A DNA stretch of 49,094 nucleotides from an uncultured Melioribacter sp. (GTDB lineage: Bacteria > Bacteroidota > Ignavibacteria > Ignavibacteriales > Melioribacteraceae): NCBI GenBank assembly GCA_964477915.1, contig CAYZGB010000003.1:1-49094 (forward strand), written 5' to 3'. Below, piece by piece: positions 20,952 through 36,317 of this stretch. Within the stretch, counting starts at the first letter, position 1; each line of letters begins with the position of its first letter. The translations under genes were made by a program, and so were the position numbers. Below the pieces are notes generated by a model. That model saw only the letters and a program-made list of their open reading frames with translations, ran no database searches and was not told the origin of the DNA.

Positions 20952-23633
20952 CTATAAAATTTCTTTTAACGTTTTTACAAGTTTATCCTTCAATATTGGT
21001 TTGGGAACAAATGCATCGAAACCGGCATCAAGGTAACGTTCTTGGTCGCCAGGCATCATATAAGCCGTAGAAGCAATAACGGGAACATTTTTGTATGAAG
21101 GTAAATTTCTAATTTCGCGTAAAGCTTCAAGTCCGTTGTAATCGCCCATTAAATTTATATCCATTACAATAAAATCAAATTTTTTCGTTCGCAAAATCGG
21201 GAGTGCATCTTCGAACCGAGCAAATACTTCAATCTCTTTTAATTCTTTCATTTGTTGTTTAAATAGCAGTTGTGAATCTACTTGGTCTTCCAAAAGTAAA
21301 CATCTCAAATCATTTAATTTAACTTCTTTTTCCTGTTTTACAATTGGAGTTGTGCTAACTCTCGATTTATTTTGTACAGGAACTTGTTGATTTGAGATAT
21401 TTTTAGCAGCAACTCTTTCTTCGGCGTTTATTCCAATGTTCGGTTTATTTTCGGCTTTAATTGAGTTTACTTCCGGTTTAGTTGCCTTTTTGTTAGTTGC
21501 AACAATTGTTTCTATGCTCTTAGGAAATTTTGCACCAAAACCAACAATAGAACCGTGCTTTTCAACTTCAGAAAAATCAACGCCAAGTAAATCAGAAAGC
21601 TTACGGAAAAGGCGAACGGCAAATCTTGAAACATTATAATTACGACGAACAATCGCTTCGTCTTCGGTTAAGTATTCATTCATCGCTTTTAGTAAATTAT
21701 CGGAAATTCCGGATTTCAAATCTTTAACATAAATCAAAACCCGGTCGTTATCCGGTTGGGCAGAAAGGTAAACTTGTTCTTCTTTAGTTCCACGAATTGC
21801 AAATTCCCAAAGCTGCGAAAGAAACATTATTGTTAAGTGTTTATCGTTATTTAAAACAATGGAGGAAGAAATTTTTCCGTACTTAAGTTCAACGTTACTT
21901 GCTTTAGCAATTTTTTTAACGTTCTCCTCTATTTTATCGAGAATTTCGACAAAGCCAAATTCTTCCGGTTTAATTCTAATCTGGTTCTGTTCAATTGCAG
22001 CATATTCGGTAGCTGCATCAATTAGTTGCATTAATGCTTGTTGATTTTCGGAAATAATTTGTGCCGATTCTTTTTGTTCGGGCGTCGGATTTTCAAGGCT
22101 TTCGAGTAATTCTTGAGTAAATCCTATTATTACATTTATCGGTGTTAAAATTTCGTGGAACAAGTGCGAAAGAAATGAAACATCAATTGAAGAACTCGAC
22201 TTATTTTCGTTTGTCGGAATTTCTACATTAGTTTTTCTTTCCAACTGATTTTGAATTTTAATAATTATTGAATAACCGGTTAGTTCCTCAAAAACATCGA
22301 ATAAAGGAATAGAAAGCATTTCGGAATTAAGAACCTTGCCGGTTTTTGTTTTAAGTGAAATTTGTGCTTCAATGTTTTCCGTAGTATGATTCAAAAATAT
22401 TTTTTTATTTATCTTCGATCTTTCTTTTTCGGAAAGCAACGAAATAAATGTTTTATTCTCCAATTCGCTTAATGAATATCCCAAATGTTTTTCGGCAGAT
22501 GAATTTACCTTAGAAATAAAACCATCAGCATCGGTTTCTATTACAAGTTCGTTAGCAAAGCTTAATATTGTATTCAACTCGCGCTGAGCTTTGTTAATTT
22601 CGGCAAGTTTTGTAATATCTTTAACAAAAGTTAAAATTGCTTTGCGTCCTTCAAACTCCAATTCCTTCCTTTTTAGTTGAACAACTACAATTGAACCATC
22701 AGATAATTTATGACGTACAGGTTTTTCAAATACCGTATCATCTAACTCCGTATAATCAATAAGGGATTGAATATCTTCCGGCAAATACAAATCGGTTAAA
22801 TCCATTTGCAAAAATTTATCGAGAGGATAACCGTAAAATTTAATTGCAGCCTTATTAACCGAAAGGAATTTTAAGTTTTCCTCATCATAAATAAAAAGCG
22901 GGTAAGGACTGGTGTCTAATATTTTGTCAATCATATTCAAAACCGAAATTTTTGATAAATTTTTATTTTTTTCTTCTTCGAAAATAATTAAAGTTGCAAT
23001 AAAAACATTTTGAGAATTAAATATTTTTTTTACCTTAACTTGAACATCGTTTTCAACATCCTTAAAAATCTTAATACGGGATGAAAATTCCTCTTGCTCA
23101 GGGTCAAGTAAAAATTCGTTTATTTGCGAGGAAAAATCATTAGGGAAAACTTCATTTATCCGAAGACCAATTTCCAGCGGAGTTTCTTCAAATATTTTAG
23201 CAAAATTTTTGCTGTATTTAGCTAACATTCCCTGATAATTAAAAAGTGCTGCTGCAATTGGTAATTCTTCAAATGCTTTAAGAATATAATTAAACTCACT
23301 ATCGTATATTGAAATAGCTTCGTTTGGTTGGATTAATCCACAGCTTGCAACAACTTCGTTATTTGAACTAATAATAGGAATTTTAATTATTTTATAATGA
23401 ATAGAGTCTTTTTCCTCAAAAACAAAATTTTCGGTAACTGCAATTGTTTTGGTTTTTTCAAGCAGCTCGTTTAAAACCGCAATTTGCTTTACAACTGAAT
23501 TTTGAAAAGCATTTTTTTCTTCATTACCGGTAATTGTAGATATTGATGAAAATTTTTCTGTTTCGGAATTCGCAATTATAATTTTTCCATTTTTATCTGC
23601 TAACCAAAAAGCAATAGAAATTTTATTCAACAA
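20952..23633 (-). CDS. PAS-domain hybrid sensor histidine kinase / response regulator (main body; true 5' end probably at 24088, see poly(A) interruption)
   Basis: Several PAS-like modules, H-box FLSHLFHEILTPINVIIGF and a C-terminal receiver (LLLEDQ ... FIVMDINL ... ASTA ... PKP). The frame stays open for 114 start-less codons upstream of the listed TTG. Confidence 0.8.
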   Translation of the reverse strand: MLNKISIAFWLADKNGKIIIANSETEKFSSISTITGNEEKNAFQNSVVKQIAVLNELLEKTKTIAVTENFVFEEKDSIHYKIIKIPIISSNNEVVASCGLIQPNEAISIYDSEFNYILKAFEELPIAAALFNYQGMLAKYSKNFAKIFEETPLEIGLRINEVFPNDFSSQINEFLLDPEQEEFSSRIKIFKDVENDVQVKVKKIFNSQNVFIATLIIFEEEKNKNLSKISVLNMIDKILDTSPYPLFIYDEENLKFLSVNKAAIKFYGYPLDKFLQMDLTDLYLPEDIQSLIDYTELDDTVFEKPVRHKLSDGSIVVVQLKRKELEFEGRKAILTFVKDITKLAEINKAQRELNTILSFANELVIETDADGFISKVNSSAEKHLGYSLSELENKTFISLLSEKERSKINKKIFLNHTTENIEAQISLKTKTGKVLNSEMLSIPLFDVFEELTGYSIIIKIQNQLERKTNVEIPTNENKSSSSIDVSFLSHLFHEILTPINVIIGFTQELLESLENPTPEQKESAQIISENQQALMQLIDAATEYAAIEQNQIRIKPEEFGFVEILDKIEENVKKIAKASNVELKYGKISSSIVLNNDKHLTIMFLSQLWEFAIRGTKEEQVYLSAQPDNDRVLIYVKDLKSGISDNLLKAMNEYLTEDEAIVRRNYNVSRFAVRLFRKLSDLLGVDFSEVEKHGSIVGFGAKFPKSIETIVATNKKATKPEVNSIKAENKPNIGINAEERVAAKNISNQQVPVQNKSRVSTTPIVKQEKEVKLNDLRCLLLEDQVDSQLLFKQQMKELKEIEVFARFEDALPILRTKKFDFIVMDINLMGDYNGLEALREIRNLPSYKNVPVIASTAYMMPGDQERYLDAGFDAFVPKPILKDKLVKTLKEIL

Positions 23634-23926
23634 AGATAAAACTTGTTGTTTTTCGATTAAAGAAAGTGGAAAACTTTTTCGAATAATATCTAATACAGAA
23701 ACTAAATCTTTATTTGGAATAAGTTGCTCAACCCGTTCGATATTAATTTTGAAATTTGCCTGATTTAATTCAAGAGTTGGGGAAACATCTAAAATTAATA
23801 AAAACTTTTGATTTTGAAGTGGAAAAACAGAAACGTTGATTAATTCTTTTTCACCGGCAATATTTGTAAGACGGATCTTATCGAGAAATGGTGACTTTGA
23901 GTGGGTAATTTTTTCCCAGTGTTCAG

Positions 23927-24088
23927 TTATGTCCGAATTTTTTTTTTTAATAAGGAAATTACATCCAATCCGGGATTAACTTTAGAACCTAAAACAAATT
24001 CCATTGAAGAGTTGGTTGCAATAATGTGTCCGTTTTTATCAATGATTACTGATGGCTTACTAATATTTATTAACAATTCGGAATACAT
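23927..24088 (-). CDS. 53-codon 5' fragment of the sensor kinase gene (first half of an N-terminal PAS domain), out of frame with the main body
   Basis: ATG 24088 lies 2 nt after the upstream gene's stop. The translation MYSELLINISKPSVIIDKNGHIIATNSSMEFVLGSKVNPGLDVISLLKKKIRT* ends just after the A11 tract. Confidence 0.6.
   Translation of the reverse strand: MYSELLINISKPSVIIDKNGHIIATNSSMEFVLGSKVNPGLDVISLLKKKIRT
23938..23948 (-). repeat. Homopolymer tract: 11 A on the coding (minus) strand, 11 T on the plus strand
   Basis: Counted directly from ...gtccgaa + 11 t + aataagg.... It is the junction between the two reading frames of the kinase gene. Confidence 0.95.
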
Positions 24089-24090
24089 TT

Positions 24091-25884
24091 TTACTTTTTC
24101 TTACTTGGAATTTGTACAGTAATAATATCAGTCCAATCCGAAACAGATTCTTCGCTTGCAGCACGAACTCGATAATCGTACGTGGTACCGCGGTAAACAC
24201 CTTCATCATTGAATGTAGTAACATTAGGTGCAACTACTCCAACACGTTCAAACTGACCACCACCGGTAAATCTTCTTTCAATTTCAAACCAACCTTCGTT
24301 ATGTGAATTATCAAGCCAGGTTAAAATTACACGTGGCGTTGGATCAGCAACCGCTTGCAAATTAGTAGGTGCAATAAGCGGTGTTCTGGCTTCGTTAGTA
24401 AAACCGGAATAAAGTGTATTTTTAAATGCTCTAACTTTGAAGTAATAAACAGTATCGCGATTAAGTCCGGCAACCGTATAATTTGTAGTGTTTGCAGATA
24501 ATGTTTTGAATAAAGTGAAATCGTGTGTAGCCGTTGCTTGCCAAATTTCAAAACCGTCTTCATCAGTGGAATTATCATTCCAACTTAATAAAAATGCAGT
24601 TCCGGGAGATAACTCCGAAATTGTTAAATTACTTGGATTTTTAGGCGGAAGGATTGGTACGTAAGCAGTATCTTCGTTCGAAAACATAGAATACGAACCG
24701 TTACCGGATAAATAACGAACTCTGTAAACATAAGTAAATCCAGGTGTGTAATTCGAATCGTAGAAAACCGTTTCATCCGGTCCAGTGGAAGCAATGCTTT
24801 CAAATAAATTTTCCGAACCGTAAATTTTTCTTTGGATCTGAGTCCCAAATTCCATATTCGAATTATCGTTCCACGTAAGTTTAACTTTTCGTGCATCCAT
24901 ATCGAACTGAGCAAGCAAGTTTGTCGGAGGCTGAATTGAAGATGAGCTTGTACGTACCGTCGTAATATTCGAGCTTGGCATACTGCTTGGAAGTACAGCA
25001 AATACTTGATAAGCATATACCGTGTTTGGTTGTAATCCTTCGTCAAAATATTCTATGGTATTAGGCGGAACAGTCGCAGCATCAACCCAATTTGTGTAAT
25101 CACCATTATTATCGATAGTTGTTCTTTTTACAAGAAAGGCATTTTCACTAACCGAATTATCTTTCCAAATTAGACGAACAACAGTAGCACCAAGTGCTTC
25201 GGCTCTCAAATCGGTTGGAGCATCTCTACCACTTTCTCCGTTCGAGCTTACTTCATTCGAAAACTTGGAATAACCGTATTGATTTTTAGCACGAACTTTA
25301 TAATAATAAGCAGTATAAGAATCTAACCCAATATCCCGATAATTCGTTGTATTTTCGTTGAAAACTTTGTAGGGCTCTCCACCATAGCTTTCGTTATCTC
25401 CAACGCTTCTCCAAAGTTCATACATATTTTCATTATTCGAATTGTCTTTCCAGCGGAGCAAAACTTCGTGTTCGTTAAATGTTGATAAAATTAAATCGGA
25501 AGGTGCACGGGGAACACCGGTTACATAAACTTTTTGTACTTTGCTTTGCGATATTCCACCACCGTCTTTGTAGCCGTTAATGTAATATTCTATTGTTGAA
25601 CCAATTGCATCCTCGGTAACAGTAAAATATAGGCTTGAATCCGAAACAAATGTACCGACTGAATGCCCCTCTACAAAAATTTCGTATAAACCAATTGAAG
25701 CATTGTGAGTTTCAAGTAAAACATCGTTTTTCCCAACGTAAACCGTATCACCGGTTATGGGGTATGCAATATTTAAAACTTCTGTTTCTCCCGGAGGATT
25801 TGAAACAGCTTCCACGCATCCGTAGGAAATTACAAATACGGGGAGAAGTACAAGAAACAGTAAAAATATTCTATTTTTTTTCAT
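24091..25884 (-). CDS. Secreted (possibly lipo-)protein with five fibronectin type III repeats
   Basis: Signal peptide MKKNRIFLLFLVLLPVFVISYGC. Five repeats carry W-x-D-N-S-x-x-E (RWKDNSNNE, IWKDNSVSE, TWNDNSNME, SWNDNSTDE, TWLDNSHNE). Alternative ATGs lie at 25896 and 25905. Confidence 0.75.
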   Translation of the reverse strand: MKKNRIFLLFLVLLPVFVISYGCVEAVSNPPGETEVLNIAYPITGDTVYVGKNDVLLETHNASIGLYEIFVEGHSVGTFVSDSSLYFTVTEDAIGSTIEYYINGYKDGGGISQSKVQKVYVTGVPRAPSDLILSTFNEHEVLLRWKDNSNNENMYELWRSVGDNESYGGEPYKVFNENTTNYRDIGLDSYTAYYYKVRAKNQYGYSKFSNEVSSNGESGRDAPTDLRAEALGATVVRLIWKDNSVSENAFLVKRTTIDNNGDYTNWVDAATVPPNTIEYFDEGLQPNTVYAYQVFAVLPSSMPSSNITTVRTSSSSIQPPTNLLAQFDMDARKVKLTWNDNSNMEFGTQIQRKIYGSENLFESIASTGPDETVFYDSNYTPGFTYVYRVRYLSGNGSYSMFSNEDTAYVPILPPKNPSNLTISELSPGTAFLLSWNDNSTDEDGFEIWQATATHDFTLFKTLSANTTNYTVAGLNRDTVYYFKVRAFKNTLYSGFTNEARTPLIAPTNLQAVADPTPRVILTWLDNSHNEGWFEIERRFTGGGQFERVGVVAPNVTTFNDEGVYRGTTYDYRVRAASEESVSDWTDIITVQIPSKKK

Positions 25885-27853
25885 TAATATTTTCATAATC
25901 AACAAGTAATGAACGTGTATCGTGACTTTCTAATTTATCAACATAAAGATACAAAATTTGTGTTTTATTATCGTATTTGTATTCATCAATTTTGGTATTA
26001 ATAATATCCGATGATAGTTTTACATTATAAACGGGTTTATTTATAAATATTTTTACAACAAAATTATACATATCATCATCGCTTGGGTTCGAAATTTCAA
26101 CGGCTAATCTTCGTTTGCTTCTAACATCCAATCTTATTTCAACTCCGTGTTTACGGAACCACCAATCTTTTAATCCGTCTATCGAAGTAACCCAAATATT
26201 TTTTTCTTGCAAATATTTTAATACTTTTTTCAAAACAGCAATGTTTTCCGCACGAAGTTGACCGTCCGTATGAATTTTAAGAATATACAATCCACCGGTA
26301 AATTTTATTCTATCAATATCTTCATAATAAGTGTACTCTTGGAATTCCGGTTCTTTCAAATGAAAATCTCGTAAAATTACATAATCGTCTCGCGAAGTAT
26401 TGGAAATCACAAGAATTTTCTTACCGCCATAAATCTCCGTTTTTGGAACTAATCGATCTATTAATGAATCGGCAAAAATTACATCCATATCGTTTTGGGA
26501 CATAACTTGCAATGTGGATTTGTCAAAAAATCCATAAAGCGGCATAATTTTAGTAACTTTTGTTCCAAGTACGGAATCGGCAAGATTTTTCGCATTAAGA
26601 ATAACTGCCCGCTGTTCATCTAAACTACTTAATTTATTCGTGGTATCTAATAAAGATTCCTTGTAACCTAAATCGACAATTAATCCTATATCTCTTGTTT
26701 GGGAAACATTTCGTAATTGTTTTTTCAATAAATTCACATTGTCAACACTTGTAAATATTGAAGAAGTAAAATCAGTAAAACTAGATAATGCACTTAGGTT
26801 TTTGAAATTTTGCGGCTCTTTATCTATTACAGGAACAAATATTGCAGCAGCAACGTAAGGTGAGGGCCAATCGATAAATTGAACCGTTGGACGATAAAGT
26901 AACCAATTTAGAGAGCTTGTAAATAATCTATCGAAATAAATGTAATCTTCTTGCCCGCCAATAACGGAATTGAGTTCAAATCCGTACCAAACAAATCTTC
27001 CTTTACCATACGTTCCATATGCAATGCCTGCACTTTTTTGGATATTTTCGAGAACAAGTCCACGTTCGTGACGGAAATCGTACCAATAACTAGCCTGAAT
27101 TGTTCGTGGTTCAAGAACTTCGGCATAAATTGGTCTATCCCATGTTGCAATATTAAGTGTATATCCGGTTGGCACACCGGCTGTAATAGGTAAATTGCCT
27201 CTAATTGTGTGAATTCTTCGAGTTCCTTCCTCCGGGTCAATCTCTTTGGTAAATTTCAAACCAAAAACTTCTGTAAAGAAATTCCAACCGTCCCATTTCC
27301 CATCAGGAGAAAAAGTTGCGATTCCGGTTGTTGCAAATAAGCTCCCGCCCTTTTTCAAAAATTTTCTGATTTGAACTTTTTCTCTATCACTAATTGCTTT
27401 TGCTCCGGGAGCAATCAGTAATTTGTATTTAGATAAAACTCCAACTTCAATATCCAAATCCGTAATTAAATCGTATTTAACTTTATGACTATTGAGGAAA
27501 TTTTCCCACGTCGAAACAATATCGCTAATCCAAGTACTGCCCTCCGGTAAAATATTTTCCGTAAAACCGGAATAAAGTAAAGCAACTTGCGTTCTTTCTT
27601 CTAAAGCTGCTTTGATATTCTTTTCAGTTGGAGCAATTTCATCAATTTCAATTCTTCCGAAAGCACCTTGAATAATCAGCAAATAAAACATTATTCCGGC
27701 AACCAATAGAGCAACACCGCCGAAAATAATTATCAATAAATTTACCCGAAGTCCTTTAATCTTATTTTCTTCATCAAATTGTTCTTCGGTATTATCAACA
27801 TTAACCGGTTTGTTTTCAGGTTTCTTTTTCCGTTTCCAGAATTTTAACGCCAC
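25871..27853 (-). CDS. Single-pass membrane-anchored periplasmic protein: GATase1/ThuA-like domain plus CE4 (polysaccharide deacetylase)-like C-terminal domain
   Basis: Basic N-terminus plus a TM segment (LLIIIFGGVALLVAGIMFYLLII). The middle region is KLLIAPGAKAISDREKVQIRKFLKKGGSLFATT ... YGKGRFVWYGFEL. The C-terminal layout ends GGLYILKIHTDG ... LQEKNIWVTSIDGLKDWW. Domain calls are by eye. Confidence 0.6.
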   Translation of the reverse strand: MALKFWKRKKKPENKPVNVDNTEEQFDEENKIKGLRVNLLIIIFGGVALLVAGIMFYLLIIQGAFGRIEIDEIAPTEKNIKAALEERTQVALLYSGFTENILPEGSTWISDIVSTWENFLNSHKVKYDLITDLDIEVGVLSKYKLLIAPGAKAISDREKVQIRKFLKKGGSLFATTGIATFSPDGKWDGWNFFTEVFGLKFTKEIDPEEGTRRIHTIRGNLPITAGVPTGYTLNIATWDRPIYAEVLEPRTIQASYWYDFRHERGLVLENIQKSAGIAYGTYGKGRFVWYGFELNSVIGGQEDYIYFDRLFTSSLNWLLYRPTVQFIDWPSPYVAAAIFVPVIDKEPQNFKNLSALSSFTDFTSSIFTSVDNVNLLKKQLRNVSQTRDIGLIVDLGYKESLLDTTNKLSSLDEQRAVILNAKNLADSVLGTKVTKIMPLYGFFDKSTLQVMSQNDMDVIFADSLIDRLVPKTEIYGGKKILVISNTSRDDYVILRDFHLKEPEFQEYTYYEDIDRIKFTGGLYILKIHTDGQLRAENIAVLKKVLKYLQEKNIWVTSIDGLKDWWFRKHGVEIRLDVRSKRRLAVEISNPSDDDMYNFVVKIFINKPVYNVKLSSDIINTKIDEYKYDNKTQILYLYVDKLESHDTRSLLVDYENINEKK

Positions 27854-28332
27854 CGCAATGGTTCCTCGTCTTCTTTATTCGCTCTTTTTGTTTCTTCAAC
27901 ACCGGTATAGCCGGCCGAGGTATAACGACTAAATCTACTGCGTGTATCATATCTTTCCGCGTTAATCGTTGAACGCCTTGGCGAAGGAGGTGCAGCAGGT
28001 GTTTCTTCGTCCATCGAAAGACCTAAAATTGTAGGCCTCATCTCGGGACGAGTATTTCCCGCATCTGTTGTAAACATTGGAGAAGTTTCGCGAGTTGAAT
28101 ACAATGATTGAGCATAAGTAGAACGTAAACCGGCATTTCCGGTTACACGTAACGTATCTTGTGCCACTTGTGGAGTAACAAGTTCTGCGGGAATTGCTTC
28201 CGGTTTCGGTTGCTCTGCTGTTTTCCCTTTTTTCTCTCTTAATTTGTAAAGTACGTATGCACCTACCGAGAGAATAAACGTCGAAACAGTAGCGACCAGA
28301 ATTATTAAAGATAATATAGGTATTAATTCCAT
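27844..28332 (-). CDS. Small single-TM protein with a Pro/Thr/Arg/Ser-rich disordered tail
   Basis: An AGGAG RBS precedes the TM segment LIPILSLIILVATVSTFILSVGAYVLY and a low-complexity tail. It overlaps the next gene by 10 nt. Confidence 0.6.
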   Translation of the reverse strand: MELIPILSLIILVATVSTFILSVGAYVLYKLREKKGKTAEQPKPEAIPAELVTPQVAQDTLRVTGNAGLRSTYAQSLYSTRETSPMFTTDAGNTRPEMRPTILGLSMDEETPAAPPSPRRSTINAERYDTRSRFSRYTSAGYTGVEETKRANKEDEEPLRWR

Positions 28333-28356
28333 TTTATATACTCCTGAAATTACTTT

Positions 28357-29751: not shown

Positions 29752-29895
29752 TGTTATGCCTTAATTATGTGCGAATTTTTTTCGCTAAAACTCCTTTAAA
29801 ATATAATATAAATTATAAATCTTTTCAAGATAATATCTTACAAAAAATATTTAAAGTATTCATCTAAATTTTCAGCGTATCTTTTTGAAAAATAA

Positions 29896-32748
29896 TCAAA
29901 ACGGTGTCCATTGCAAACTAACACCAATTGCACGAGAACGATAACCGAGATAATATCTTTGCGATTGACGGAAAAATACAAAACCGCTTATGAACAAATT
30001 ATCGTAAGGTTTATATCCGGCATCTAATCTTGCATCCCAAATAAAATAAGTTGTTTTGGGTACATATCCAATTTTTCCACTAAACTTTAAATTCCATTGC
30101 TTGTCTTTATAAAAATTCCATTCTCCCCAAATAGAATGCGAAGAATAATCTTGCGGAGAGTAATAATATGTTGACGTAAATTGATAGTCAATATAATTGA
30201 ATTCGTAACCCAATATGTAATTTCCGCCAAAATGTCTTCCAATTCTAAACAAAAAATCGTTTCCCCAATTATTTCTGGTTAAAGAGCCGGGTAAGGCACG
30301 TAAAAATGCCCAATATCCACGCATTGTTAAATTCGTGGGGAAATTATAATATCCGCTTAACTTGTAAATTTGCGATGTAATTTTGTAAGGCACTAAATAT
30401 GGTGAGTATAGAATTTCAGCACCATCTCCTTGTTGGAAAAATCCACTAATGCTATATTTCCCGGAATCAGCATAAGTTGCAATTACTTCATATTCTCTTC
30501 TATTATAATAATCACCGAACATCCTTCCAATTCCACCGGTTATCCTCAACTTTTTTGTTGGAACAATGTGCAGATAAAACATCAATCGATGAAAATAATT
30601 ATTTATGTTTCCATCGGACAAAATTCCGTAACGATATCCGGCACCAACCGATATCCACCGAAAGAGTCCGGTATTAGCATCAACACCAATGTAACCGTAT
30701 GTAAAATCAAGTAAATCATTAAAATAGTAGATGTACGGATTTAGATATAAATAAGAAAATAAATCATACCAAAGCGATGAGAAAAATCCCGGACCACCTT
30801 CTCCAACACCAGGCGGAAGCCAACTCAATCTTTTTTCGATTGAATATTTGTCCCATAAACTGTCCGGGACTGAATCATAGGCTTTTCTTGCATTATCAAA
30901 TTCTTTCATTCTTAAATAAGAATCCCCAAGGAAAACTTTAACTTCGGCATTTGTCGAATCTTTTTGAGCTAATTTTTCAAATTCTTGTAGAGCCTCGGTG
31001 GAATCCCCGCCCCAAAAAAGACTTTTTGCTTTTAACAAACGAACCTGTTCGTTATCGTTTAAAGCAAGGGCTTTATCGTACGTCATTGCAGCGGAATCGT
31101 ATTTATTTAAGACCATATATGCGCTTGCCAACGAAAGCAATACAGGATAATCGTCCATATTTAATTCTTGCGGTTTAGAAAAATATTCGTTGTATTTTTC
31201 TACGGCTTCTTCAAAACGGCTTTGGTGATAAAGCGAATCCCCCTCGGCAGCTATTGTTAAATATTTTTCATACTCTTTCTTTAATCTCAAAAGTTCATAC
31301 ATATTACTTAATTCTTTTACATCGTCGTTATCAGGAGCAAGGCTTTCTCCAAGTTCCACATAATGCTGCAAAGAGTCCAAATTGTTTTGATTATAATAAT
31401 ATAGCCCCAAAGTTGTAATTGCAGTAACGTTTTTCGGATCTTCTTTTAAAACATCATATAAGTTTTCTTTCGGGGCTTCGCTTTCGTCCAAAGTCCATAC
31501 ACCTAACTGCCCTGCGAGTAATTTATAATCAAGCTTATTTCCCCCATTATCCAGAACATCTTTAATTATTTCATAGGCTTTATCAAAATCGCGTTGATAA
31601 GAATATACTTTTGCCAGCTCGTATTTTGCATTAAAATCATCGGGCATTAGTTTTAGATATTTTTCTAATAACCCTTTTGCTTTATCATATTCTTCCAAAT
31701 TCATATAATTTTTAGCTAAATCCAAAATTGCTTGTCTATCCGTAGAATCTTTTGCTACGGATTGTTCGGCAATTGCAATTTTTTGCTTGTAGTAATTATC
31801 CAATCTTTCTTTTAACTTTTTATACCTTTCGTCATCCGAATATTTTTCCGCAAGAATAGCAAGTTGATCTTTTGCTTCCTGATATCTTTTTTTATTTAAT
31901 AACTCACGTACAAGTTTAAAACGAATGTTGTCGTTTTCGGGATTCTTAGATAATTGACGATAATATTTATCAATTAAGTAAACTTTTTCGAAATCTCTCG
32001 GTTGATACTGAACCAAATAACCTTTTCTCATTGCCAATTCCAAACCATCTTCGGCTTCTTTAAAATAAGGTTTAAAACTTAACGCTGTTCGAAATGCATT
32101 TTCCGCAGTTTTATATTTACCAAGCCAAAGTGTAAAATATCCGTAACGGCTCCACAACCTCCAATCGTCAGGATAGCGTTCAACGTATTTTTTTAATATT
32201 TTTTCGCCTTTTTTTATATGCTTTGTTTTGGTAAGAATTATTGTATATCGGATAATTTCATCGGGTGAAGCATTCGGATCGCGTTTTAGATATTCGTCGT
32301 ACCACTTTTCCGCAAGGTCCCATTTTTCCATCCAACGATAACATTTACCAATTTCCAAATAATCAATTGCACTTTCGGGATTAATAGCCAACTCCCTTTT
32401 ATGCCCTTCTATTTTTGATTCAAGAATTTTATACCAAACTTTAATTGTTCTATTCAAATTCTTTTTATACTCCGGATTACCCGGGTCTAAAGCCACTGCA
32501 CGTCTAAAATCCAATACGGCATATTTATAAATTCCTTGTACCTCATAACACAATCCACGTAAATTATATCCATCTGCCTTTTGTGGATTTTGTGCTACAT
32601 ATTTATTTAGAACGTCAATTGCTTCTGCATATTTACCAATTTTCATTTGCCTAATGGCATAACGCTTCAATTGTTCGGCAGATCTTTGTCCAAAAGCAGT
32701 TAGTGAAAAAATTGAAATCAAAAGCAATATTTTGGCTAGTCGGTTCAT
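29896..32748 (-). CDS. Outer-membrane export protein: N-terminal TPR array plus C-terminal beta-barrel (BcsC/PgaA/PelB-like architecture)
   Basis: A signal peptide is followed by about 600 aa of TPR-type repeats. The last ~300 aa are rich in Y/G/F alternating strands and end ...GVSLQWTPF (aromatic terminal residue). Confidence 0.72.
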   Translation of the reverse strand: MNRLAKILLLISIFSLTAFGQRSAEQLKRYAIRQMKIGKYAEAIDVLNKYVAQNPQKADGYNLRGLCYEVQGIYKYAVLDFRRAVALDPGNPEYKKNLNRTIKVWYKILESKIEGHKRELAINPESAIDYLEIGKCYRWMEKWDLAEKWYDEYLKRDPNASPDEIIRYTIILTKTKHIKKGEKILKKYVERYPDDWRLWSRYGYFTLWLGKYKTAENAFRTALSFKPYFKEAEDGLELAMRKGYLVQYQPRDFEKVYLIDKYYRQLSKNPENDNIRFKLVRELLNKKRYQEAKDQLAILAEKYSDDERYKKLKERLDNYYKQKIAIAEQSVAKDSTDRQAILDLAKNYMNLEEYDKAKGLLEKYLKLMPDDFNAKYELAKVYSYQRDFDKAYEIIKDVLDNGGNKLDYKLLAGQLGVWTLDESEAPKENLYDVLKEDPKNVTAITTLGLYYYNQNNLDSLQHYVELGESLAPDNDDVKELSNMYELLRLKKEYEKYLTIAAEGDSLYHQSRFEEAVEKYNEYFSKPQELNMDDYPVLLSLASAYMVLNKYDSAAMTYDKALALNDNEQVRLLKAKSLFWGGDSTEALQEFEKLAQKDSTNAEVKVFLGDSYLRMKEFDNARKAYDSVPDSLWDKYSIEKRLSWLPPGVGEGGPGFFSSLWYDLFSYLYLNPYIYYFNDLLDFTYGYIGVDANTGLFRWISVGAGYRYGILSDGNINNYFHRLMFYLHIVPTKKLRITGGIGRMFGDYYNRREYEVIATYADSGKYSISGFFQQGDGAEILYSPYLVPYKITSQIYKLSGYYNFPTNLTMRGYWAFLRALPGSLTRNNWGNDFLFRIGRHFGGNYILGYEFNYIDYQFTSTYYYSPQDYSSHSIWGEWNFYKDKQWNLKFSGKIGYVPKTTYFIWDARLDAGYKPYDNLFISGFVFFRQSQRYYLGYRSRAIGVSLQWTPF

Positions 32749-34130
32749 TCTCCCAAAAAGTCAGTTATCGGGATATAAAGATTTTCAGTAGTAGTTGGCG
32801 AAGAAAGGTAATCTAAAATTGTTTCTGCACGGTCTAAATTTTCATCAACTTCATAATTAAAAAGCTTTACAAGATCTTTTGCTTCTTCTTTTGTAAAACC
32901 AAGATTTAGAATATTTGTATAAACATTTCTAACTATTTCAAAAATTCGTTCGTCTGTACTACGAGGAACAAGCACCATTGTTAAATCACCGATATAGCAA
33001 ATTTTCTCGCGTCTTTGAGTAGAGGCAACAATAATTCCTTTTATGTCGTCTAAGTTTACTCCTTTGGTTTCGAGCAAAGCGATGGAAACCGCAAACGAAA
33101 TAATATTAAATTTATCCGAAGTACTTCTAAATAATACAATTTGATTATTAATAATTAACGAAAAATCATTGTAGTTGTAAACGTTCGAAGCATTAACATT
33201 TACTACGCGAGTTGGAGTTTCCGTTTTTCTTGCTACTTCATTATTAATTTTTTCTGTTTCAATTCCACTTTCCGCATCAGTTCCGTAAACAGGATTTTCG
33301 TTAATCTCGTGTAAATTCCTTGCATAAAGTTCGTCGGCTTCTTCATCATAAACTCTTGAAATTTTTTCGGCTTCTCTTTCACGAACATCTGTAACAGAAA
33401 GATTTATTTCATTCTCCTCACCTAAGTTTACAACTACACCTTTGTATGGCAAAATTTTATATTGCTCCGAAAATTGTCCTTCCGTATGTCCAATATTTGG
33501 TGTGATAATAACCGTACCGCCGTAAAATTTTTTATCAATCTTACGAGCATCTTTTTTCAAATAAACCACACCGGTTACCAAACTAACTACCAAATCAACA
33601 ATTTCATTTGCTCTTCTTGTAGCCGGTTCGGCAATTACAAAGAGACTTGTAATGTCTCTATTTTCAATTTCTTCAAGTAAATGTAAAAAAGATTTTTTAA
33701 GGGTTGCCAAATCGCGAAAACCAACATAAGGTGTTAATTCATCGAAAACAATTCTTTGAGGATTGTATTGTTTACTAACACTAATTATATCATTTAAGTA
33801 TTCAATTAAAAGTTCATCGTTAACATTCGAACTATATATTTCTTCAGGACTTGCTACACGCACTACGATAATTAAATTTTTATCCATATATTTTTGAATA
33901 TCAAAATTTAGTGATGCGGCTTGAATCATCAAGTCTTTGGGACGCATATTTGTAAAATAAACACAAACTTCCCCTTCTTCAGCGGAAGCCTTGGCAAACT
34001 GTAATCCAAGTAATGTTCTTCCCGATTTTCTAGCACCAATTACAAGGTAACTTCCACCTTCGTAAACACCACCCCATTTTTTATCTATTAAATTAAATCC
34101 AGATTTATGTAACCTTATTGGTAAACTCAT
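32745..34130 (-). CDS. KaiC/RecA-like P-loop protein with Walker A Lys->Arg, fused to a C-terminal domain that loosely resembles a degenerate GGDEF domain
   Basis: LIDKKWGGVYEGGSYLVIGARKSGRTLLGLQFA (GxxxxGRT instead of GK[ST]) and Walker B-like RIVFDELTP. The C-terminal ...REKICYIGDLTMVLVPRS is aligned by eye to R-x-GGDEF-x-ll. Its stop overlaps the next gene by 4 nt. Confidence 0.6.
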   Translation of the reverse strand: MSLPIRLHKSGFNLIDKKWGGVYEGGSYLVIGARKSGRTLLGLQFAKASAEEGEVCVYFTNMRPKDLMIQAASLNFDIQKYMDKNLIIVVRVASPEEIYSSNVNDELLIEYLNDIISVSKQYNPQRIVFDELTPYVGFRDLATLKKSFLHLLEEIENRDITSLFVIAEPATRRANEIVDLVVSLVTGVVYLKKDARKIDKKFYGGTVIITPNIGHTEGQFSEQYKILPYKGVVVNLGEENEINLSVTDVREREAEKISRVYDEEADELYARNLHEINENPVYGTDAESGIETEKINNEVARKTETPTRVVNVNASNVYNYNDFSLIINNQIVLFRSTSDKFNIISFAVSIALLETKGVNLDDIKGIIVASTQRREKICYIGDLTMVLVPRSTDERIFEIVRNVYTNILNLGFTKEEAKDLVKLFNYEVDENLDRAETILDYLSSPTTTENLYIPITDFLGE

Positions 34131-34264
34131 AATTTTTATTCCTAAATTTTCTCGTTAAATCCCAATTATCATACCAAAAATTTTTGCGTTTTTTTTTCAT
34201 TTTGACACAAAAAATAAAATATATTTTGTCCGAAATACCAAATTGTATTAAAATGAGACAATAA

Positions 34265-35908
34265 TTATCTCAAATTTCCAAACACGAATACAGCAGTGGC
34301 ATTAGCGGAAATTGTCGGTTCATTGCAAACATAATCATTTCTGTCATCTCTGTAATACGCATCGTCCGTTTGAAAAGCAGAAAATTTATCTTTTGTTTCG
34401 TAATTAATATTTAAATCACCATAAATTTTCTTCATAACGGGACCACCTGTTAATCCACCAGGTAATTTTCCTTTGTTAAAATATGCAACCTGATGATGAA
34501 AATGCTTTGTGTAATTTGCACCTTTGCCATAAATAAAACTAATTCCCCAAGGATTTCTACCTAAAATGTAGTCGCGGTTAATAAACTCAATTTTATCAAA
34601 CGTGTTATCATTTGTAAATTTTTTATATAAAATATTCGTTAATGCTACTCCGAGTAAATTCATATTACTACCCCAATATAAGTCAACGCCCTCACCAAAA
34701 ACTTTACTTTCGGAATGTTTTTTAAATTTTATTAATGATTTTTGAAGAAATTCAATAAAAGCCTTATCATATTTGGCAATTTTGTAATCCGCAATATTTG
34801 CAACATTTCCCCAGCCCCACCAAGCCTCCGTACCGGCTTTTCTTGCAAAATTTTCCGAATCTTGCAGATATTTTTCATTTCCGGTTAATTCATACAATTC
34901 AATTGCAGCAAGCGAAAGTTTTCCGTTAAATTTCGTATCCCTGTAAAAACCGGTTCCGGTTGTATCCAAATCGTCGCTTTCGTTAATCAGTTCGTAAAAG
35001 CCAATTGCAGTATTTTTAAGCTTTTCGGCAAATTCCGAGTAATGAATTTTATTTTCCCAAATTTTTGAGCCAAGTGCCAATGCAGCTACATAAATACCAA
35101 TTAGATTTTTGCCAATACCTATAAAACCGGGTCTATCAAATTGTAGCGGGTCGTTTTCTGGTAATCGCCAGCCGACTTTCTGATCTTTTTCATTCTGGAC
35201 TTGCGTTACTAATTTTCTGTTTTTATAATTGGCACGTAATAACCAATCAAGTCCAATTTTTGCTTCCTCAAGAATATCCGGCACTTGATTTTTATTCAAA
35301 TCGAATGAAAATTTTTCAGGAGCAAAATCATAAGAAAAAAGTAGTAAATATGTGGAAAATGCAATTGTGTTCAAAAACTTAGTGTAATCGCCCGCATCGT
35401 GCCAACCTCCGGTTACATCAAAAATTTCGTGTCTTTCCTTGCCATTTTCTATAATTGAAGTAACATCGGAAATATGACATTTTTTATGCAAATAAGGATG
35501 AGTGGGACCGCATCTTTGAACTTCAAAAAATTTCAGTAAATATGAAGCAAAACCCGAATAAACATTATCGGAAATTTCAAATTGAGGAGATTTTGAATCA
35601 GCTATTAATAATGCAAATCGCCCTTTATTTTTGAAATCGCTAAAATCAATTTCGTATGAATAAGGAAATGAAGCATATTTTCCTTTTGAATTTCTAATGA
35701 AATCGGAAAAAACTTTTACATTAACTTTATCAACTAAATAAAACCTCCGACCGGTTAAATTAATATTACTGAGAACTATTGCAGATTTAACATCATCGGT
35801 ATTGAATCCTACTTGATTTACGCGAATATAAATTTTAGGATTTCCGTTACTTTGAGCTGTTGAACAACCGGAAAATATTAACAATAAAACGAATAAAATC
35901 CGCTTCAT
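34265..35908 (-). CDS. Glycoside hydrolase family 9 endoglucanase lipoprotein (CelD_N Ig-like domain plus GH9 catalytic domain)
   Basis: Lipobox LIFSGC, Ig-like N-terminus IYIRVNQVGFN, GH9 signature DVTGGWHDAGDYTKF, and C-terminal YRDDRNDYVCNEPTISANA. Confidence 0.88.
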   Translation of the reverse strand: MKRILFVLLLIFSGCSTAQSNGNPKIYIRVNQVGFNTDDVKSAIVLSNINLTGRRFYLVDKVNVKVFSDFIRNSKGKYASFPYSYEIDFSDFKNKGRFALLIADSKSPQFEISDNVYSGFASYLLKFFEVQRCGPTHPYLHKKCHISDVTSIIENGKERHEIFDVTGGWHDAGDYTKFLNTIAFSTYLLLFSYDFAPEKFSFDLNKNQVPDILEEAKIGLDWLLRANYKNRKLVTQVQNEKDQKVGWRLPENDPLQFDRPGFIGIGKNLIGIYVAALALGSKIWENKIHYSEFAEKLKNTAIGFYELINESDDLDTTGTGFYRDTKFNGKLSLAAIELYELTGNEKYLQDSENFARKAGTEAWWGWGNVANIADYKIAKYDKAFIEFLQKSLIKFKKHSESKVFGEGVDLYWGSNMNLLGVALTNILYKKFTNDNTFDKIEFINRDYILGRNPWGISFIYGKGANYTKHFHHQVAYFNKGKLPGGLTGGPVMKKIYGDLNINYETKDKFSAFQTDDAYYRDDRNDYVCNEPTISANATAVFVFGNLR

Positions 35909-36286: not shown

Positions 36287-36293
36287 CAAAAAA

Positions 36294-36317
36294 GGCTGCC
36301 CTAAGCAGCCTTTTTTA
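36294..36317 (+). terminator. Rho-independent terminator after the glutaredoxin-like gene
   Basis: ggctgc-cctaa-gcagcc followed by tttttt. Confidence 0.65.

What the first reader, a model, noticed from the sequence alone, without database searches (positions are those of the whole stretch)
20952..35908. Non-canonical synthase-dependent exopolysaccharide secretion locus
Eight co-directional, mostly overlapping minus-strand genes supply every functional class of a synthase-dependent EPS machine, but in a combination I do not recognise as bcs, pga, pel or alg.
- Synthase: an inner-membrane processive GT2 with D,D,D,QxxRW motifs (GGKSKALN, MDGDS, AEDAD, QRYRWTRG) and no PilZ domain.
- Export: a 950-aa TPR plus beta-barrel outer-membrane protein with the BcsC/PgaA/PelB architecture.
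- Glycanase: a periplasmic lipoprotein of family GH9 (GGWHDAGDYTKF), not the GH8 of BcsZ.
- Modification: a CE4-like periplasmic protein.
- Extras: a degenerate KaiC-like ATPase, a small TM/disordered protein, an Fn3x5 lipoprotein and a PAS hybrid kinase.
Gene linkage supports co-transcription. KaiC-like/TPR-OMP overlap by 4 nt, small/660-aa by 10 nt and 660-aa/Fn3 by 14 nt. The Fn3 stop lies 2 nt from the kinase ATG. The polymer is unknown; a PgaC-like synthase paired with a GH9 beta-1,4-glucanase-type hydrolase is an unusual combination.
Basis: partly seen in the sequence, partly recalled or inferred. Interest (0 to 1): 0.8.

Follow-up and report, generated by a model that had tools for sequence, protein, structure and literature searches.

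The report
Lineage-specific polysaccharide synthesis and export locus
An eight-gene cluster, kept in the same order across Melioribacteraceae/Ignavibacteria genomes, most likely builds and exports an unknown surface polysaccharide; it follows the logic of the known Pga/Ica and cellulose systems but uses several parts with no described counterpart.

Summary
Eight minus-strand genes lie at 20952-35908 with the stated motifs and junctions. The same genes, in the same order, occur in every sufficiently long related locus from 80 Melioribacteraceae/Ignavibacteria species genomes, and in divergent metagenome loci, while the flanking genes differ.

The core is a KaiC-like pseudo-ATPase, a TPR protein with an orphan C-terminal domain, a PgaC/IcaA-like GT2 synthase, a small one-helix membrane protein and a ~630-aa membrane-anchored CE4-fold protein. 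The GH9 hydrolase, the Fn3 lipoprotein, the PAS sensor protein, a GDSL-like gene and a true CE4 paralog are accessory.

- The CE4-fold protein lacks the His-His and Arg residues of active deacetylases.
- The "kinase" has no recognisable ATP-binding domain, and here an A11 tract splits it by a frameshift.
- The C-terminal "barrel" matches no known porin family. Its composition fits a barrel, but no structure was obtained.
- The GT2, small membrane protein, CE4-family order mirrors icaA-icaD-icaB and pgaC-pgaD.

Verdict: a real, uncharacterised synthase-dependent system, and a new variant of a known kind. The polymer is unknown: most likely HexNAc-based, possibly beta-1,4-linked. Function is inferred from sequence only.

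The parts
34265..35908 (-). GH9 glycoside hydrolase with an N-terminal CelD_N Ig-like domain; probable lipoprotein (MKRILFVLLLIFSGC). Accessory member and first gene of the unit.
   Evidence: Pfam Glyco_hydro_9 at 4.7e-76 and CelD_N at 2.9e-14. The best PDB match is endoglucanase CelD, 1clc, at 1e-30. The DAGD motif and the C-terminal NEP Glu can be read in the translation. It lies upstream of the KaiC-like gene, typically 120-190 nt away (range 117-761 nt), in 69 related loci. It is absent in L089 and L091, and sits on the opposite strand downstream in L090.
32745..34130 (-). Cytoplasmic single-domain KaiC/RecA-like protein with a degenerate Walker A, a disordered linker (about residues 230-311) and a ~145-aa C-terminal alpha/beta domain of unknown family.
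   Evidence: Pfam KaiC at 6e-24. Walker A reads G-x-R-K-S-G-R-T, with Arg in place of Lys in all 21 homologs; Walker B (FDELT) is intact. In the AF2 model (pLDDT 75) the N-domain matches KaiC, FlaH and PH0186. The C-domain has no Pfam or PDB match. The gene overlaps the next gene by 4 nt.
29896..32748 (-). 950-aa secreted protein: signal peptide, about 600 aa of TPR repeats, then a 311-aa C-terminal domain (residues 640-950, nt 29899-30831) that is probably an outer-membrane beta-barrel.
   Evidence: TPR families score up to 1.6e-38. The C-terminal domain has only 92 relatives among 1.84 billion cluster representatives; in the full-length hits (about 735-1130 aa) it lies at the C-terminus, and many hits are shorter fragments. 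It has no Pfam or PDB match. Composition is 24% Y+F+W, 11% Gly and no Cys, and the protein ends QWTPF. Dyad alternation is 0.40, against 0.43 for the PgaA barrel and 0.22 for its own TPR part.
28357..29751 (-). Membrane-embedded GT2 synthase with two N-terminal and at least three C-terminal TM helices and the DxD, ED and QxxRW motifs; no PilZ or other regulatory domain.
   Evidence: Pfam GT2 families. The best NCBIfam model is PgaC_IcaA at 4.4e-62 and 210 bits (cut-off 422), ahead of NodC at 101 bits and CelA at 75 bits. It is 32% identical to E. coli PgaC, 4e-43, with the ED and QRxRW motifs aligned. PDB matches include 6yv7, HAS and BcsA. TM scan.
27844..28332 (-). 162-aa protein with one N-terminal TM helix followed by a basic stretch and a Pro/Ser/Thr/Arg-rich, probably disordered tail. 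It occupies the position of PgaD/IcaD.
   Evidence: No Pfam or NCBIfam match. One TM helix at residues 3-21. A gene of this kind sits between the GT2 and the ~630-aa gene in all related loci. It overlaps the next gene by 10 nt.
25871..27853 (-). 660-aa membrane-anchored protein, probably facing the periplasm: one TM helix, a GATase1/GH42M/ThuA-like domain, a CE4-fold (NodB-type) domain without the canonical catalytic residues, and a C-terminal beta-sandwich.
   Evidence: The window protein itself gives only weak ThuA, GH42M and ABC_transp_aux hits. Of 20 homologs, 12 hit PF01522, best 1.4e-8. In the AF2 model (pLDDT 72) Foldseek finds CE4 deacetylases 3rxz, 3qbu and 1z7a at TM about 0.6-0.66, plus NDST1 and PelA. 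Motif 2 (HxxxH) aligns to G-F/Y-L-E-S-L and motif 3 (RPP) aligns to MPLYG. A paralog in L091 keeps LHGDKHD and FRPPE.
24091..25905 (-). Lipoprotein with five Fn3-like repeats (W-x-DNS-x-x-E motif at residues 152, 247, 345, 442 and 530). The probable start is the ATG at 25884. Accessory member.
   Evidence: Pfam fn3 at 1.1e-22. Five repeats found by motif search, and a signal/TM segment at residues 13-31. Present in most related loci, absent in L089, and replaced by a CE4 paralog in L091.
20952..24090 (-). Soluble multi-PAS / HisKA / receiver protein ('hybrid kinase') with a degenerate ATP-binding domain. In this genome a frameshift at an A11 tract (23938-23948) splits it into a 53-codon ORF (24088-23927) and an 893-aa ORF (23633-20952).
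   Evidence: PAS, HisKA and Response_reg are detected, but HATPase_c scores only E = 0.17. The precomputed Pfam lists for the L004, L089 and L091 homologs also show no HATPase_c. The frame downstream of the tract is open from 23939, and one extra A would fuse the two parts into about 1045 aa. The same A11 occurs in two other assemblies. Intact 1034-1145-aa versions exist in L077, L005, L091 and L093.

Best explanation
This is a lineage-specific (Melioribacteraceae/Ignavibacteriota) synthase-dependent polysaccharide synthesis and export system.

Shown by the analysis:
- A PgaC/IcaA-like membrane GT2 with all processive-synthase motifs.
- A TPR-rich secreted protein.
- A membrane-anchored CE4-fold protein.
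- A GH9 hydrolase.
- All of these are held in a fixed gene order across many species.

Inferred:
- The GT2 polymerises a UDP-sugar, most likely UDP-GlcNAc or another HexNAc, at the inner face of the membrane and threads the chain through its own channel. The small one-helix protein encoded next to it would help, in the role of PgaD/IcaD.
- The 660-aa protein receives the chain in the periplasm. Because it has lost the CE4 metal and catalytic residues, it more likely binds or guides the polymer than deacetylates it.
- The TPR protein scaffolds the periplasmic parts, and its C-terminal domain forms the outer-membrane pore.
- The GH9 lipoprotein trims or releases chains, the job done by BcsZ, the PgaB C-domain, PelA or AlgL in known systems. 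That would point to a beta-1,4 linkage.
- The Fn3 lipoprotein binds the product at the cell surface.
- The KaiC-like pseudo-ATPase and the PAS/HisKA/receiver protein regulate synthase activity from the cytoplasm, in place of the c-di-GMP receptors of the classical systems.
For: - Domain assignments.
- GT2 topology and motifs.
- CE4 fold of the 660-aa protein.
- Eight-gene synteny at 30-90% identity in 80 species genomes, with unconserved flanks.
- The same cluster around the most divergent homologs of the C-terminal domain.
- Translational-coupling-type overlaps at three junctions.
- The unit starts after a divergent glutaredoxin gene and a terminator-like hairpin.
- The barrel-like domain has 92 relatives among 1.84 billion cluster representatives, and all seven divergent members looked up lie next to a KaiC-like gene, six of them within this cluster.
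- A paralog with intact CE4 motifs (L091) and a GDSL/SGNH-like gene (30 of 74 loci) appear as optional members. Both are typical polysaccharide-modifying enzymes.
Against: - No experiment exists and the polymer is unknown.
- The barrel is not demonstrated. No structure was obtained, and there is no homology to PgaA or BcsC or to any Pfam barrel family, including those of AlgE and NfrA.
- The CE4-fold protein lacks the catalytic residues.
- GH9 enzymes are known for beta-1,4 substrates, whereas the closest GT2 relatives make beta-1,6-GlcNAc, so the parts give conflicting hints about the polymer.
- GH9 is missing from some divergent clusters, and the M. roseus GH9 genes were published as catabolic endoglucanases (PMC3534657).
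- One locus (L088) has the KaiC-like/TPR pair without the synthase genes.
- Gaps of 134 and 144 nt leave room for internal promoters, and co-transcription was not tested.
Confidence: 0.65

Rival explanations
1. The GH9 is an ordinary catabolic endoglucanase that merely sits next to the cluster. The polysaccharide machine would then be the five core genes alone, and GH9 would say nothing about the polymer.
For: M. roseus GH9 genes were assigned to cellulose degradation, and cell-bound CMCase bands of matching size were seen (PMC3534657). GH9 is absent from clusters L089 and L091. There is a 134-nt gap to the next gene. The closest solved relatives are cellulases and a xyloglucanase.
Against: GH9 lies directly upstream of the KaiC-like gene, typically at 120-190 nt (range 117-761 nt), in 69 loci, while the genes upstream of it vary. 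It is linked again in a different arrangement in L090, downstream on the opposite strand. No other cellulolytic genes are nearby in the window. Dedicated hydrolases are a standard part of synthase-dependent systems (established knowledge: BcsZ, PgaB-C, PelA, AlgL).
Confidence: 0.2
2. The product is not a secreted high-molecular-weight exopolysaccharide. It would be a short oligosaccharide or a cell-bound glycan, for example NodC/NodB-style chito-oligosaccharides or a periplasmic glycan, and the TPR protein would be a scaffold rather than a pore.
For: NodC is the second-best NCBIfam model at 101 bits. The GT2 plus CE4-family pairing also occurs in Nod factor synthesis (established knowledge). 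The barrel is unproven.
Against: PgaC_IcaA scores twice as high as NodC. The C-terminal domain has outer-membrane-protein composition and a terminal Phe. A ~600-aa TPR region fused to such a domain is the architecture of PgaA, BcsC and PelB. The CE4-fold protein lacks the catalytic residues that NodB needs.
Confidence: 0.1
3. The KaiC-like protein and the TPR/C-terminal-domain protein form a separate envelope module with another role, such as assembly or regulation of an outer-membrane complex, which is only recruited next to the synthase genes.
For: The two genes overlap by 4 nt here and are adjacent in every locus. In L088 they occur without the GT2, small and CE4-like genes and are followed by MacAB/TolC-type efflux genes.
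Against: In the six other divergent loci examined the pair is followed by the GT2 set, as it is in all 80 genome loci. A cytoplasmic ATPase-like protein and an outer-membrane protein have no obvious direct contact. L088 may be a decayed or rearranged locus.
Confidence: 0.08

Closest known systems
PgaABCD / IcaADBC poly-beta-1,6-N-acetylglucosamine systems
   Same: The GT2 is a clear PgaC/IcaA homolog: best NCBIfam model and 32% identity to E. coli PgaC. A small membrane protein is encoded directly after the synthase, as with pgaD and icaD. A CE4-family protein follows it, as icaB does. A TPR protein with a C-terminal domain of about 300 aa matches the size and layout of PgaA.
   Different: The GT2 scores 210 bits against an equivalog cut-off of 422. 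The small protein has one helix and a long tail and no similarity to PgaD. The CE4-fold protein lacks His-His and Arg, carries an extra GATase1-like domain, and shows no similarity to PgaB. The C-terminal domain shows no homology to the PgaA barrel. The hydrolase is GH9 rather than GH153. A KaiC-like protein, an Fn3 lipoprotein and a PAS sensor are added, and no c-di-GMP element was found.
Bacterial cellulose synthase (BcsA-B-Z-C with BcsE/Q/R)
   Same: It has a processive GT2 with QxxRW, a dedicated beta-1,4-type endoglucanase-family hydrolase, and a TPR outer-membrane protein. It also has a cytoplasmic regulator built on a degenerate RecA/KaiC-like domain, as in the BcsE N-terminal domain (PMC7439463). 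A YYSPQ(D/E)Y motif in the C-terminal domain also occurs in the E. coli BcsC barrel.
   Different: There is no PilZ domain and no BcsB. CelA models score only 75 bits. The hydrolase is GH9, not GH8. Similarity to BcsC is not significant (hhalign probability 1.4%; 2.8 bits). The C-domain of the KaiC-like protein shows no similarity to BcsE.
NfrA/NfrB exopolysaccharide system of E. coli
   Same: It is a minimal synthase-dependent system made of a GT2 synthase and a TPR plus barrel outer-membrane protein (PMC8669469, seen; details from general knowledge).
   Different: NfrB carries a c-di-GMP-binding MshEN domain, which is absent here. No Pfam NfrA_C match was found. There is no epimerase gene here.
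Pel system (PelA-G)
   Same: Both have a TPR/porin protein and a multidomain periplasmic modifier containing a CE4 domain. PelA (9cgy) is among the structural matches of the 660-aa model.
   Different: The Pel synthase is a GT4 enzyme (PelF) with PelD, PelE and PelG. No homologs of those, or of PelC, are present here.
Plant KORRIGAN (GH9) with cellulose synthase
   Same: A GH9 endoglucanase-family enzyme is genetically tied to a processive GT2 synthase (general knowledge, not tested here).
   Different: It is eukaryotic and membrane-anchored, and it works with CesA rosettes. There is no operon or outer membrane.

Membership tests
Synthase-dependent exopolysaccharide secretion systems (general class) | Inner-membrane processive GT2 synthase with DxD, (T)ED and QxxRW motifs and its own TM channel | tested here: met
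   The motifs MDGDS, AEDAD and QRYRW are present and align with those of PgaC. There are two N-terminal and at least three C-terminal TM segments. Matches include PgaC_IcaA, HAS and BcsA.
Synthase-dependent exopolysaccharide secretion systems (general class) | Outer-membrane protein with periplasmic TPR repeats and a C-terminal beta-barrel porin | tested here: inconclusive
   TPR repeats are confirmed. The C-terminal 311 aa has barrel-like composition, dyad alternation and a terminal Phe, but no homology to any known barrel. No structure model could be made.
Synthase-dependent exopolysaccharide secretion systems (general class) | Dedicated periplasmic glycoside hydrolase or lyase | tested here: met
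   A GH9 with a signal/lipobox sequence and the catalytic DAGD and Glu motifs, linked to the cluster in 69 loci. Activity on the product was not tested.
Synthase-dependent exopolysaccharide secretion systems (general class) | c-di-GMP receptor controlling the synthase (PilZ, PgaCD interface, PelD, Alg44, MshEN) | tested here: not met
   Pfam and NCBIfam report no PilZ, GGDEF, EAL or MshEN domain in any of the eight proteins. A PgaCD-type composite site cannot be excluded from sequence.
PgaABCD (PNAG) system | PgaC/IcaA equivalog synthase | tested here: not met
   TIGR03937 scores 210.4 bits against a cut-off of 422.3. It is a homolog, not an equivalog.
PgaABCD (PNAG) system | PgaB-type CE4 de-N-acetylase with the Asp-His-His metal site, plus a GH153 domain | tested here: not met
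   The CE4 fold is present, but the His-His and Arg positions are replaced. hhalign against E. coli PgaB gives probability 0.2%. There is no GH153 domain.
PgaABCD (PNAG) system | PgaA porin homology | tested here: not met
   TIGR03939 matches only the TPR region, at 47 bits against a cut-off of 367. hhalign of the C-terminal profile against the PgaA barrel gives probability 7.6%.
Bcs cellulose synthase | BcsA with a C-terminal PilZ domain, BcsB partner, GH8 BcsZ | tested here: not met
   CelA models score 75 and 56 bits against cut-offs of 699 and 992. There is no PilZ and no BcsB-like protein. The hydrolase is GH9.
CE4 carbohydrate esterases (active enzymes) | Motifs TFDD, H(S/T)xxH and RxPY, which provide the Asp-His-His metal site and the catalytic base and acid | tested here: not met
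   The profile-to-PDB alignment places G-F/Y-L-E-S-L at HSxxH and MPLYG at RPPxG. No DD is found after the first strand. The paralog in L091 keeps LHGDKHD and FRPPE.
GH9 glycoside hydrolases | GH9 catalytic domain with the DAGD Asp pair and a C-terminal catalytic Glu | tested here: met
   PF00759 scores 257 bits over the full model. HDAGDY and NEP are present in the translation. Substrate was not tested.
KaiC/RecA-like ATPases | Walker A GxxxxGK(S/T) and Walker B hhhhDE | tested here: not met
   Walker A is G-x-R-K-S-G-R-T, with Arg replacing Lys in all 21 sequences; Walker B is intact. The fold is KaiC-like. It is a single domain, not the double domain of KaiC.
Hybrid histidine kinases | HisKA with the phospho-acceptor His, an HATPase_c catalytic domain and a receiver domain | tested here: not met
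   HisKA (FHEILTPIN) and the receiver domain are present. HATPase_c scores only E = 0.17 and 12.7 bits and is also unlisted for the L004, L089 and L091 homologs. The gene is frameshifted here.

The most novel reading that the evidence does not exclude
The cluster secretes a polymer type not yet known from synthase-dependent systems: a beta-1,4-linked HexNAc/hexosamine (chitin- or chitosan-like) exopolysaccharide. It would be made by a PgaC-like synthase, handled by a catalytically dead CE4-fold chaperone (with live CE4 or SGNH modifiers in some lineages) and cut by a GH9. Control would come not from c-di-GMP but from a KaiC-like pseudo-ATPase and a PAS phosphorelay protein. Export would run through an outer-membrane domain family unrelated in sequence to PgaA, BcsC, PelB or AlgE.
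Probability: 0.2. Interest if true: 0.8.

Novelty: new variant of a known kind. Interest (0 to 1): 0.55.

Why it matters
Only a handful of synthase-dependent polysaccharide systems are understood (alginate, cellulose, PNAG, Pel, Nfr), nearly all from Proteobacteria and Firmicutes, and all are switched by c-di-GMP.

This locus would add a system from a deep, environmentally widespread lineage (Ignavibacteriota, common in subsurface, hot-spring and wastewater biofilms). It has an orphan export domain, a pseudo-enzyme in place of the usual deacetylase, and a different regulatory logic.

Cultured relatives carry it (Melioribacter sp. Ez-97 and OK-6-Me, Stygiobacter electus), so it can be tested directly. 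It also cautions against counting the cluster's GH9 as a catabolic cellulase in genome surveys.

Tried and rejected
1. A word-indexed protein search with the C-terminal 311 aa returned nothing. The exhaustive HMMER search then found 92 relatives, so the first result was a limit of the tool.

2. The C-terminal profile (A4) was compared with the PDB, Pfam, the E. coli PgaA barrel and the BcsC barrel. No match was significant. Only a YYSPQ(D/E)Y motif is shared with BcsC, which I treat as a hint.

3. I tested whether the C-terminal domain of the KaiC-like protein is a degenerate GGDEF domain, which would give a BcsE-like architecture. The AF2 secondary-structure order (alpha-beta-alpha-alpha-beta-beta-alpha-alpha-beta-alpha) is compatible with this. 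However, Pfam, a PDB profile search and hhalign against E. coli BcsE gave nothing, and the Foldseek output was filled by KaiC hits to the N-domain. The idea is neither supported nor excluded.

4. hhalign of the 660-aa family against PgaB showed no similarity.

5. Rfam scans of the window at gathering thresholds, and of the locus at relaxed E-values, found no riboswitch or other RNA element.

6. The sigma-70 promoter scan gave no more hits than shuffled sequence. It is not informative for this phylum.

7. Six literature searches found no description of this cluster.

8. Both structure-prediction jobs went to the 660-aa and KaiC-like proteins, so the barrel could not be modelled.

Full report
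**What is in the sequence**

The window has eight consecutive minus-strand ORFs between 20952 and 35908. Pfam and NCBIfam give the following:
- 34265-35908: GH9 with a CelD_N Ig-like domain (257 bits).
- 32745-34130: a single KaiC/RecA-like domain (6e-24) followed by about 230 unassigned residues.
- 29896-32748: a 950-aa protein rich in TPR repeats up to about residue 630.
- 28357-29751: a GT2 whose best curated model is PgaC_IcaA (4.4e-62, 210 bits, below the equivalog cut-off of 422). NodC follows at 101 bits and CelA at 75 bits.
- 27844-28332: a 162-aa protein with no match.
- 25871-27853: a 660-aa protein with only weak ThuA, GH42M and ABC_transp_aux hits.
- 24091-25905: an Fn3-repeat protein.
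- 20952-23633: a protein with PAS, HisKA and receiver domains.

Only three of the seven junctions overlap. Two gaps, of 134 and 144 nt, are AT-rich and have no terminator-like hairpin.

The gene upstream of GH9 is a glutaredoxin gene on the plus strand (36032-36286). Beyond it lie two minus-strand terminator-like hairpins. GH9 therefore opens a transcription unit.

**Is it more than chance?**

The 660-aa protein has hundreds of homologs, all from Ignavibacteria/Melioribacteraceae. A scan of one genome per species found 138 genomes with a relative. The best 80 are all Melioribacteraceae or Ignavibacteriota and include three cultured strains.

I ran tblastn with the eight window proteins against all fetched loci. 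All eight appear in the same order and strand wherever the contig is long enough, at identities from about 30% (Fn3, TPR) to 70-90% (GT2). The window's flanking genes are not conserved. The cluster is a conserved unit.

**The synthase**

The GT2 has two N-terminal and at least three C-terminal hydrophobic helices. It aligns with E. coli PgaC at 32% identity (4e-43), and the ED and QRxRW motifs are in register. Solved relatives are the minimal cellulose-synthase-like mannosyltransferase 6yv7, hyaluronan synthases and BcsA.

It therefore belongs with membrane-integrated processive synthases. It has no PilZ or other appended domain. It is a PgaC homolog but not an equivalog, so the sugar and the linkage cannot be read from it.

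**The CE4-like protein**

The window protein itself does not reach PF01522, but 12 of 20 homologs do (best 1.4e-8). An AlphaFold2 model (pLDDT 72) matches CE4-fold deacetylases (3rxz, 3qbu, 1z7a, TM about 0.6-0.66). It also matches NDST1 and PelA. Its N-terminal domain matches the GATase1-like trimerisation domain of GH42 enzymes.

The profile-to-PDB alignment shows that CE4 motif 2 (H-S-x-x-H) is replaced by G-F/Y-L-E-S-L and motif 3 (R-P-P) by M-P-L-Y-G. No Asp-Asp follows the first strand.

A divergent locus (L091) carries a second, secreted paralog. It is 29% identical over the full length (2e-80), keeps LHGDKHD and FRPPE, and hits PF01522 at 1.5e-12. The core 660-aa family is thus a CE4 descendant that lost the classical metal and catalytic residues. 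Many acidic residues remain invariant. I read it as a polymer-binding or guiding subunit, or as an enzyme with a non-canonical site. It should not be counted as a proven deacetylase.

**The TPR protein**

Residues 640-950 have no Pfam or PDB match, even as a 15-sequence profile. An exhaustive HMMER search of 1.84 billion cluster representatives found only 92 relatives. In the full-length hits (about 735-1130 aa) the domain lies at the C-terminus; many hits are shorter fragments. hhalign against the E. coli PgaA and BcsC barrels gave probabilities of 7.6% and 1.4%. The only shared element is YYSPQ(D/E)Y with BcsC residues 1024-1030, which is not statistically supported.

Several features favour a barrel:
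- 24% aromatic residues, 11% glycine and no cysteine.
- A C-terminal Phe here, and F, L or Y in homologs.
- Pervasive hydrophobic/polar alternation. Coverage is 0.40, against 0.43 for the PgaA barrel, 0.38 for BcsC and 0.22 for the protein's own TPR part. This measure separates poorly from some soluble proteins, which score 0.30-0.35.
- A length equal to the 16-strand PgaA barrel.

I rate the barrel likely but not shown.

**The KaiC-like protein**

The AF2 model (pLDDT 75) has a KaiC/FlaH-like N-domain, a disordered linker (residues 230-311) and a compact alpha/beta C-domain. In all 21 aligned homologs the Walker A reads G-x-R-K-S-G-R-T, with Arg in place of the catalytic Lys, while Walker B (FDELT) is intact. 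This points to a nucleotide-binding but non-hydrolysing protein.

BcsE of the E. coli cellulose system also starts with a degenerate RecA/KaiC-like domain (PMC7439463). I tested whether the C-domain is a degenerate GGDEF domain, as in BcsE. The secondary-structure order is compatible, but no sequence method supports it.

**The sensor protein**

The ATG 2 nt after the Fn3 stop opens a frame that ends after 53 codons, just past an A11 tract at 23938-23948. The next frame is open from 23939 into the 893-aa ORF. One extra A would give a protein of about 1045 aa, the size of the intact homologs (1034-1145 aa in L077, L005, L091 and L093).

Two other assemblies of the same species have the same A11. 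This could be a shared homopolymer assembly error, a real pseudogene, or a site of transcriptional or translational slippage. I cannot tell which.

Independently of this, the region between HisKA and the receiver scores only E = 0.17 for HATPase_c. The homologs in L004, L089 and L091 also list no HATPase_c. "Kinase" is therefore uncertain. The protein has no TM helix.

**Core and accessory genes**

I looked up the most divergent homologs of the C-terminal domain.
- L089 has KaiC, TPR, GT2, small protein, a 626-aa protein and a sensor, with no GH9 and no Fn3.
- L090 has Fn3, and GH9 lies downstream on the opposite strand.
- L091 has the true CE4 paralog in place of Fn3 and no GH9.
- L092 and L093 carry the full eight-gene set; L094 carries the seven genes from KaiC-like to the sensor, and the truncated ORF upstream of its KaiC-like gene was not identified.
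- L088 has only the KaiC/TPR pair, followed by efflux genes.

In 30 of 74 Melioribacteraceae loci a GDSL/SGNH-like gene sits between the TPR gene and the GT2. It is absent here.

The core is therefore the KaiC-like protein, the TPR/C-terminal-domain protein, the GT2, the small TM protein and the ~630-aa CE4-fold protein. GH9, Fn3, the sensor, the GDSL-like gene and the live CE4 are optional. GH9 is nevertheless tightly linked in the family to which the window belongs. It lies upstream of the KaiC-like gene, typically at 120-190 nt, in 69 loci, whatever lies further upstream.

**Mechanism**

The best-supported reading is a synthase-dependent system with Pga/Ica-like logic. The GT2 polymerises and translocates the chain, helped by the small membrane protein in the PgaD/IcaD position. 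The anchored CE4-fold protein and the TPR scaffold handle the chain in the periplasm. The C-terminal domain of the TPR protein forms the pore. GH9 trims or releases the polymer, and Fn3 binds the product. The KaiC-like and PAS proteins regulate. Only the domain identities and the linkage are shown; every functional step is inferred.

The polymer is open. The GT2 lineage, the CE4 ancestry and the optional CE4/SGNH genes point to an acetylated, HexNAc-type chain. All characterised GH9 enzymes act on beta-1,4 linkages (general knowledge), and this one is closest to endoglucanases. A beta-1,4 HexNAc/hexosamine polymer would reconcile the two hints, but a cellulose-like glucan or PNAG cannot be excluded.

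**Comparison and novelty**

The locus fails the membership tests for Pga and for Bcs. For Pga, the synthase is below the equivalog cut-off, there is no PgaB similarity and no PgaA barrel homology. For Bcs, there is no PilZ, no BcsB and no GH8. It works like both.

No paper describing it was found. The M. roseus genome paper lists that species' GH9 genes as catabolic endoglucanases (PMC3534657).

I class the locus as a new variant of a known kind. It is of moderate interest because of the orphan export domain, the pseudo-enzyme subunit, the missing c-di-GMP module and the availability of cultured carriers.

Noticed in passing
window 23927-24090, A11 tract at 23938-23948 (minus strand): The sensor-kinase gene is split by a frameshift at an 11-A homopolymer. 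One extra A would restore a protein of about 1045 aa. The same A11 is present in two other assemblies of the species. It could be an assembly error, a pseudogene, or a slippage or phase-variation site.
   Followed up: partly
window 21294-21986 (minus strand; residues 550-780 of the 893-aa ORF): The region where the ATP-binding (HATPase_c) domain should be scores only E = 0.17. The L004, L089 and L091 homologs also list no HATPase_c. The protein may be a phosphorelay or phosphatase component rather than an autokinase.
   Followed up: partly
window 36032-36286 (+): An 84-aa glutaredoxin gene (CRFC motif; PF00462 at 2e-18) lies on the opposite strand in what looks like a long intergenic region upstream of GH9. 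The true GH9 upstream region is therefore only about 120 nt and is divergent.
   Followed up: yes
window 36290-36420 (minus strand): A roughly 30-codon ORF with a lipoprotein-like signal (MSRLGRFIFVTFFLLVTISALLAC...) is followed by a strong hairpin plus T-run (GGCTGC..GCAGCC, about 36290-36318).
   Followed up: no
window 39723-47743 (minus strand): A second run of four co-directional genes is dominated by TPR repeats. It includes a GT2-TPR fusion (44100-45629) and a 1020-aa TPR protein with a GT9-like C-terminus (41054-44116). It may be a separate glycosylation system.
   Followed up: no
window 36494-39619 (minus strand): A 1041-aa protein has Ig/Fn3 domains and a C-terminal Por_Secre_tail, so it is a type IX secretion cargo. 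Homologs flank the cluster only in some relatives.
   Followed up: no
L077:6561-7790, L005:6573-7808 and 28 other loci: A ~410-aa GDSL/SGNH-like gene sits between the TPR gene and the GT2 in 30 of 74 related loci but not in the window. SGNH-fold proteins acetylate alginate and cellulose in known systems.
   Followed up: partly
L091:12699-14435: This is a secreted paralog of the 660-aa protein that keeps the CE4 His-x-x-x-His and Arg-Pro-Pro motifs. It sits where the Fn3 gene is in other loci, which suggests one live and one dead CE4 copy in that lineage.
   Followed up: partly
L088:4891-9127: The KaiC-like and TPR/C-terminal-domain gene pair occurs without the GT2, small and CE4-like genes, and is followed by MacAB/TolC-type efflux genes.
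   Followed up: no
window 30130-30170 (residues ~221-228 of the C-terminal domain) and E. coli BcsC residues 1024-1030: The most conserved motif of the orphan C-terminal domain, YYSPQ(D/E)Y-x-SHS-x-W, resembles GGYYSPQEY in the BcsC barrel. The overall similarity is not significant.
   Followed up: partly
L088, L089, L091, L092 (gene just upstream of the KaiC-like gene or GH9): A fatty-acid hydroxylase family gene (PF04116) lies directly upstream of the cluster in several divergent loci. NlpC/P60 and MR_MLE (peptidoglycan peptide recycling) genes lie further upstream in many loci.
   Followed up: no
window 29899-30831 as query: The word-indexed protein search returned no hit for this aromatic-rich domain, not even the window's own protein, whereas the exhaustive HMMER search found 92.
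   Followed up: yes
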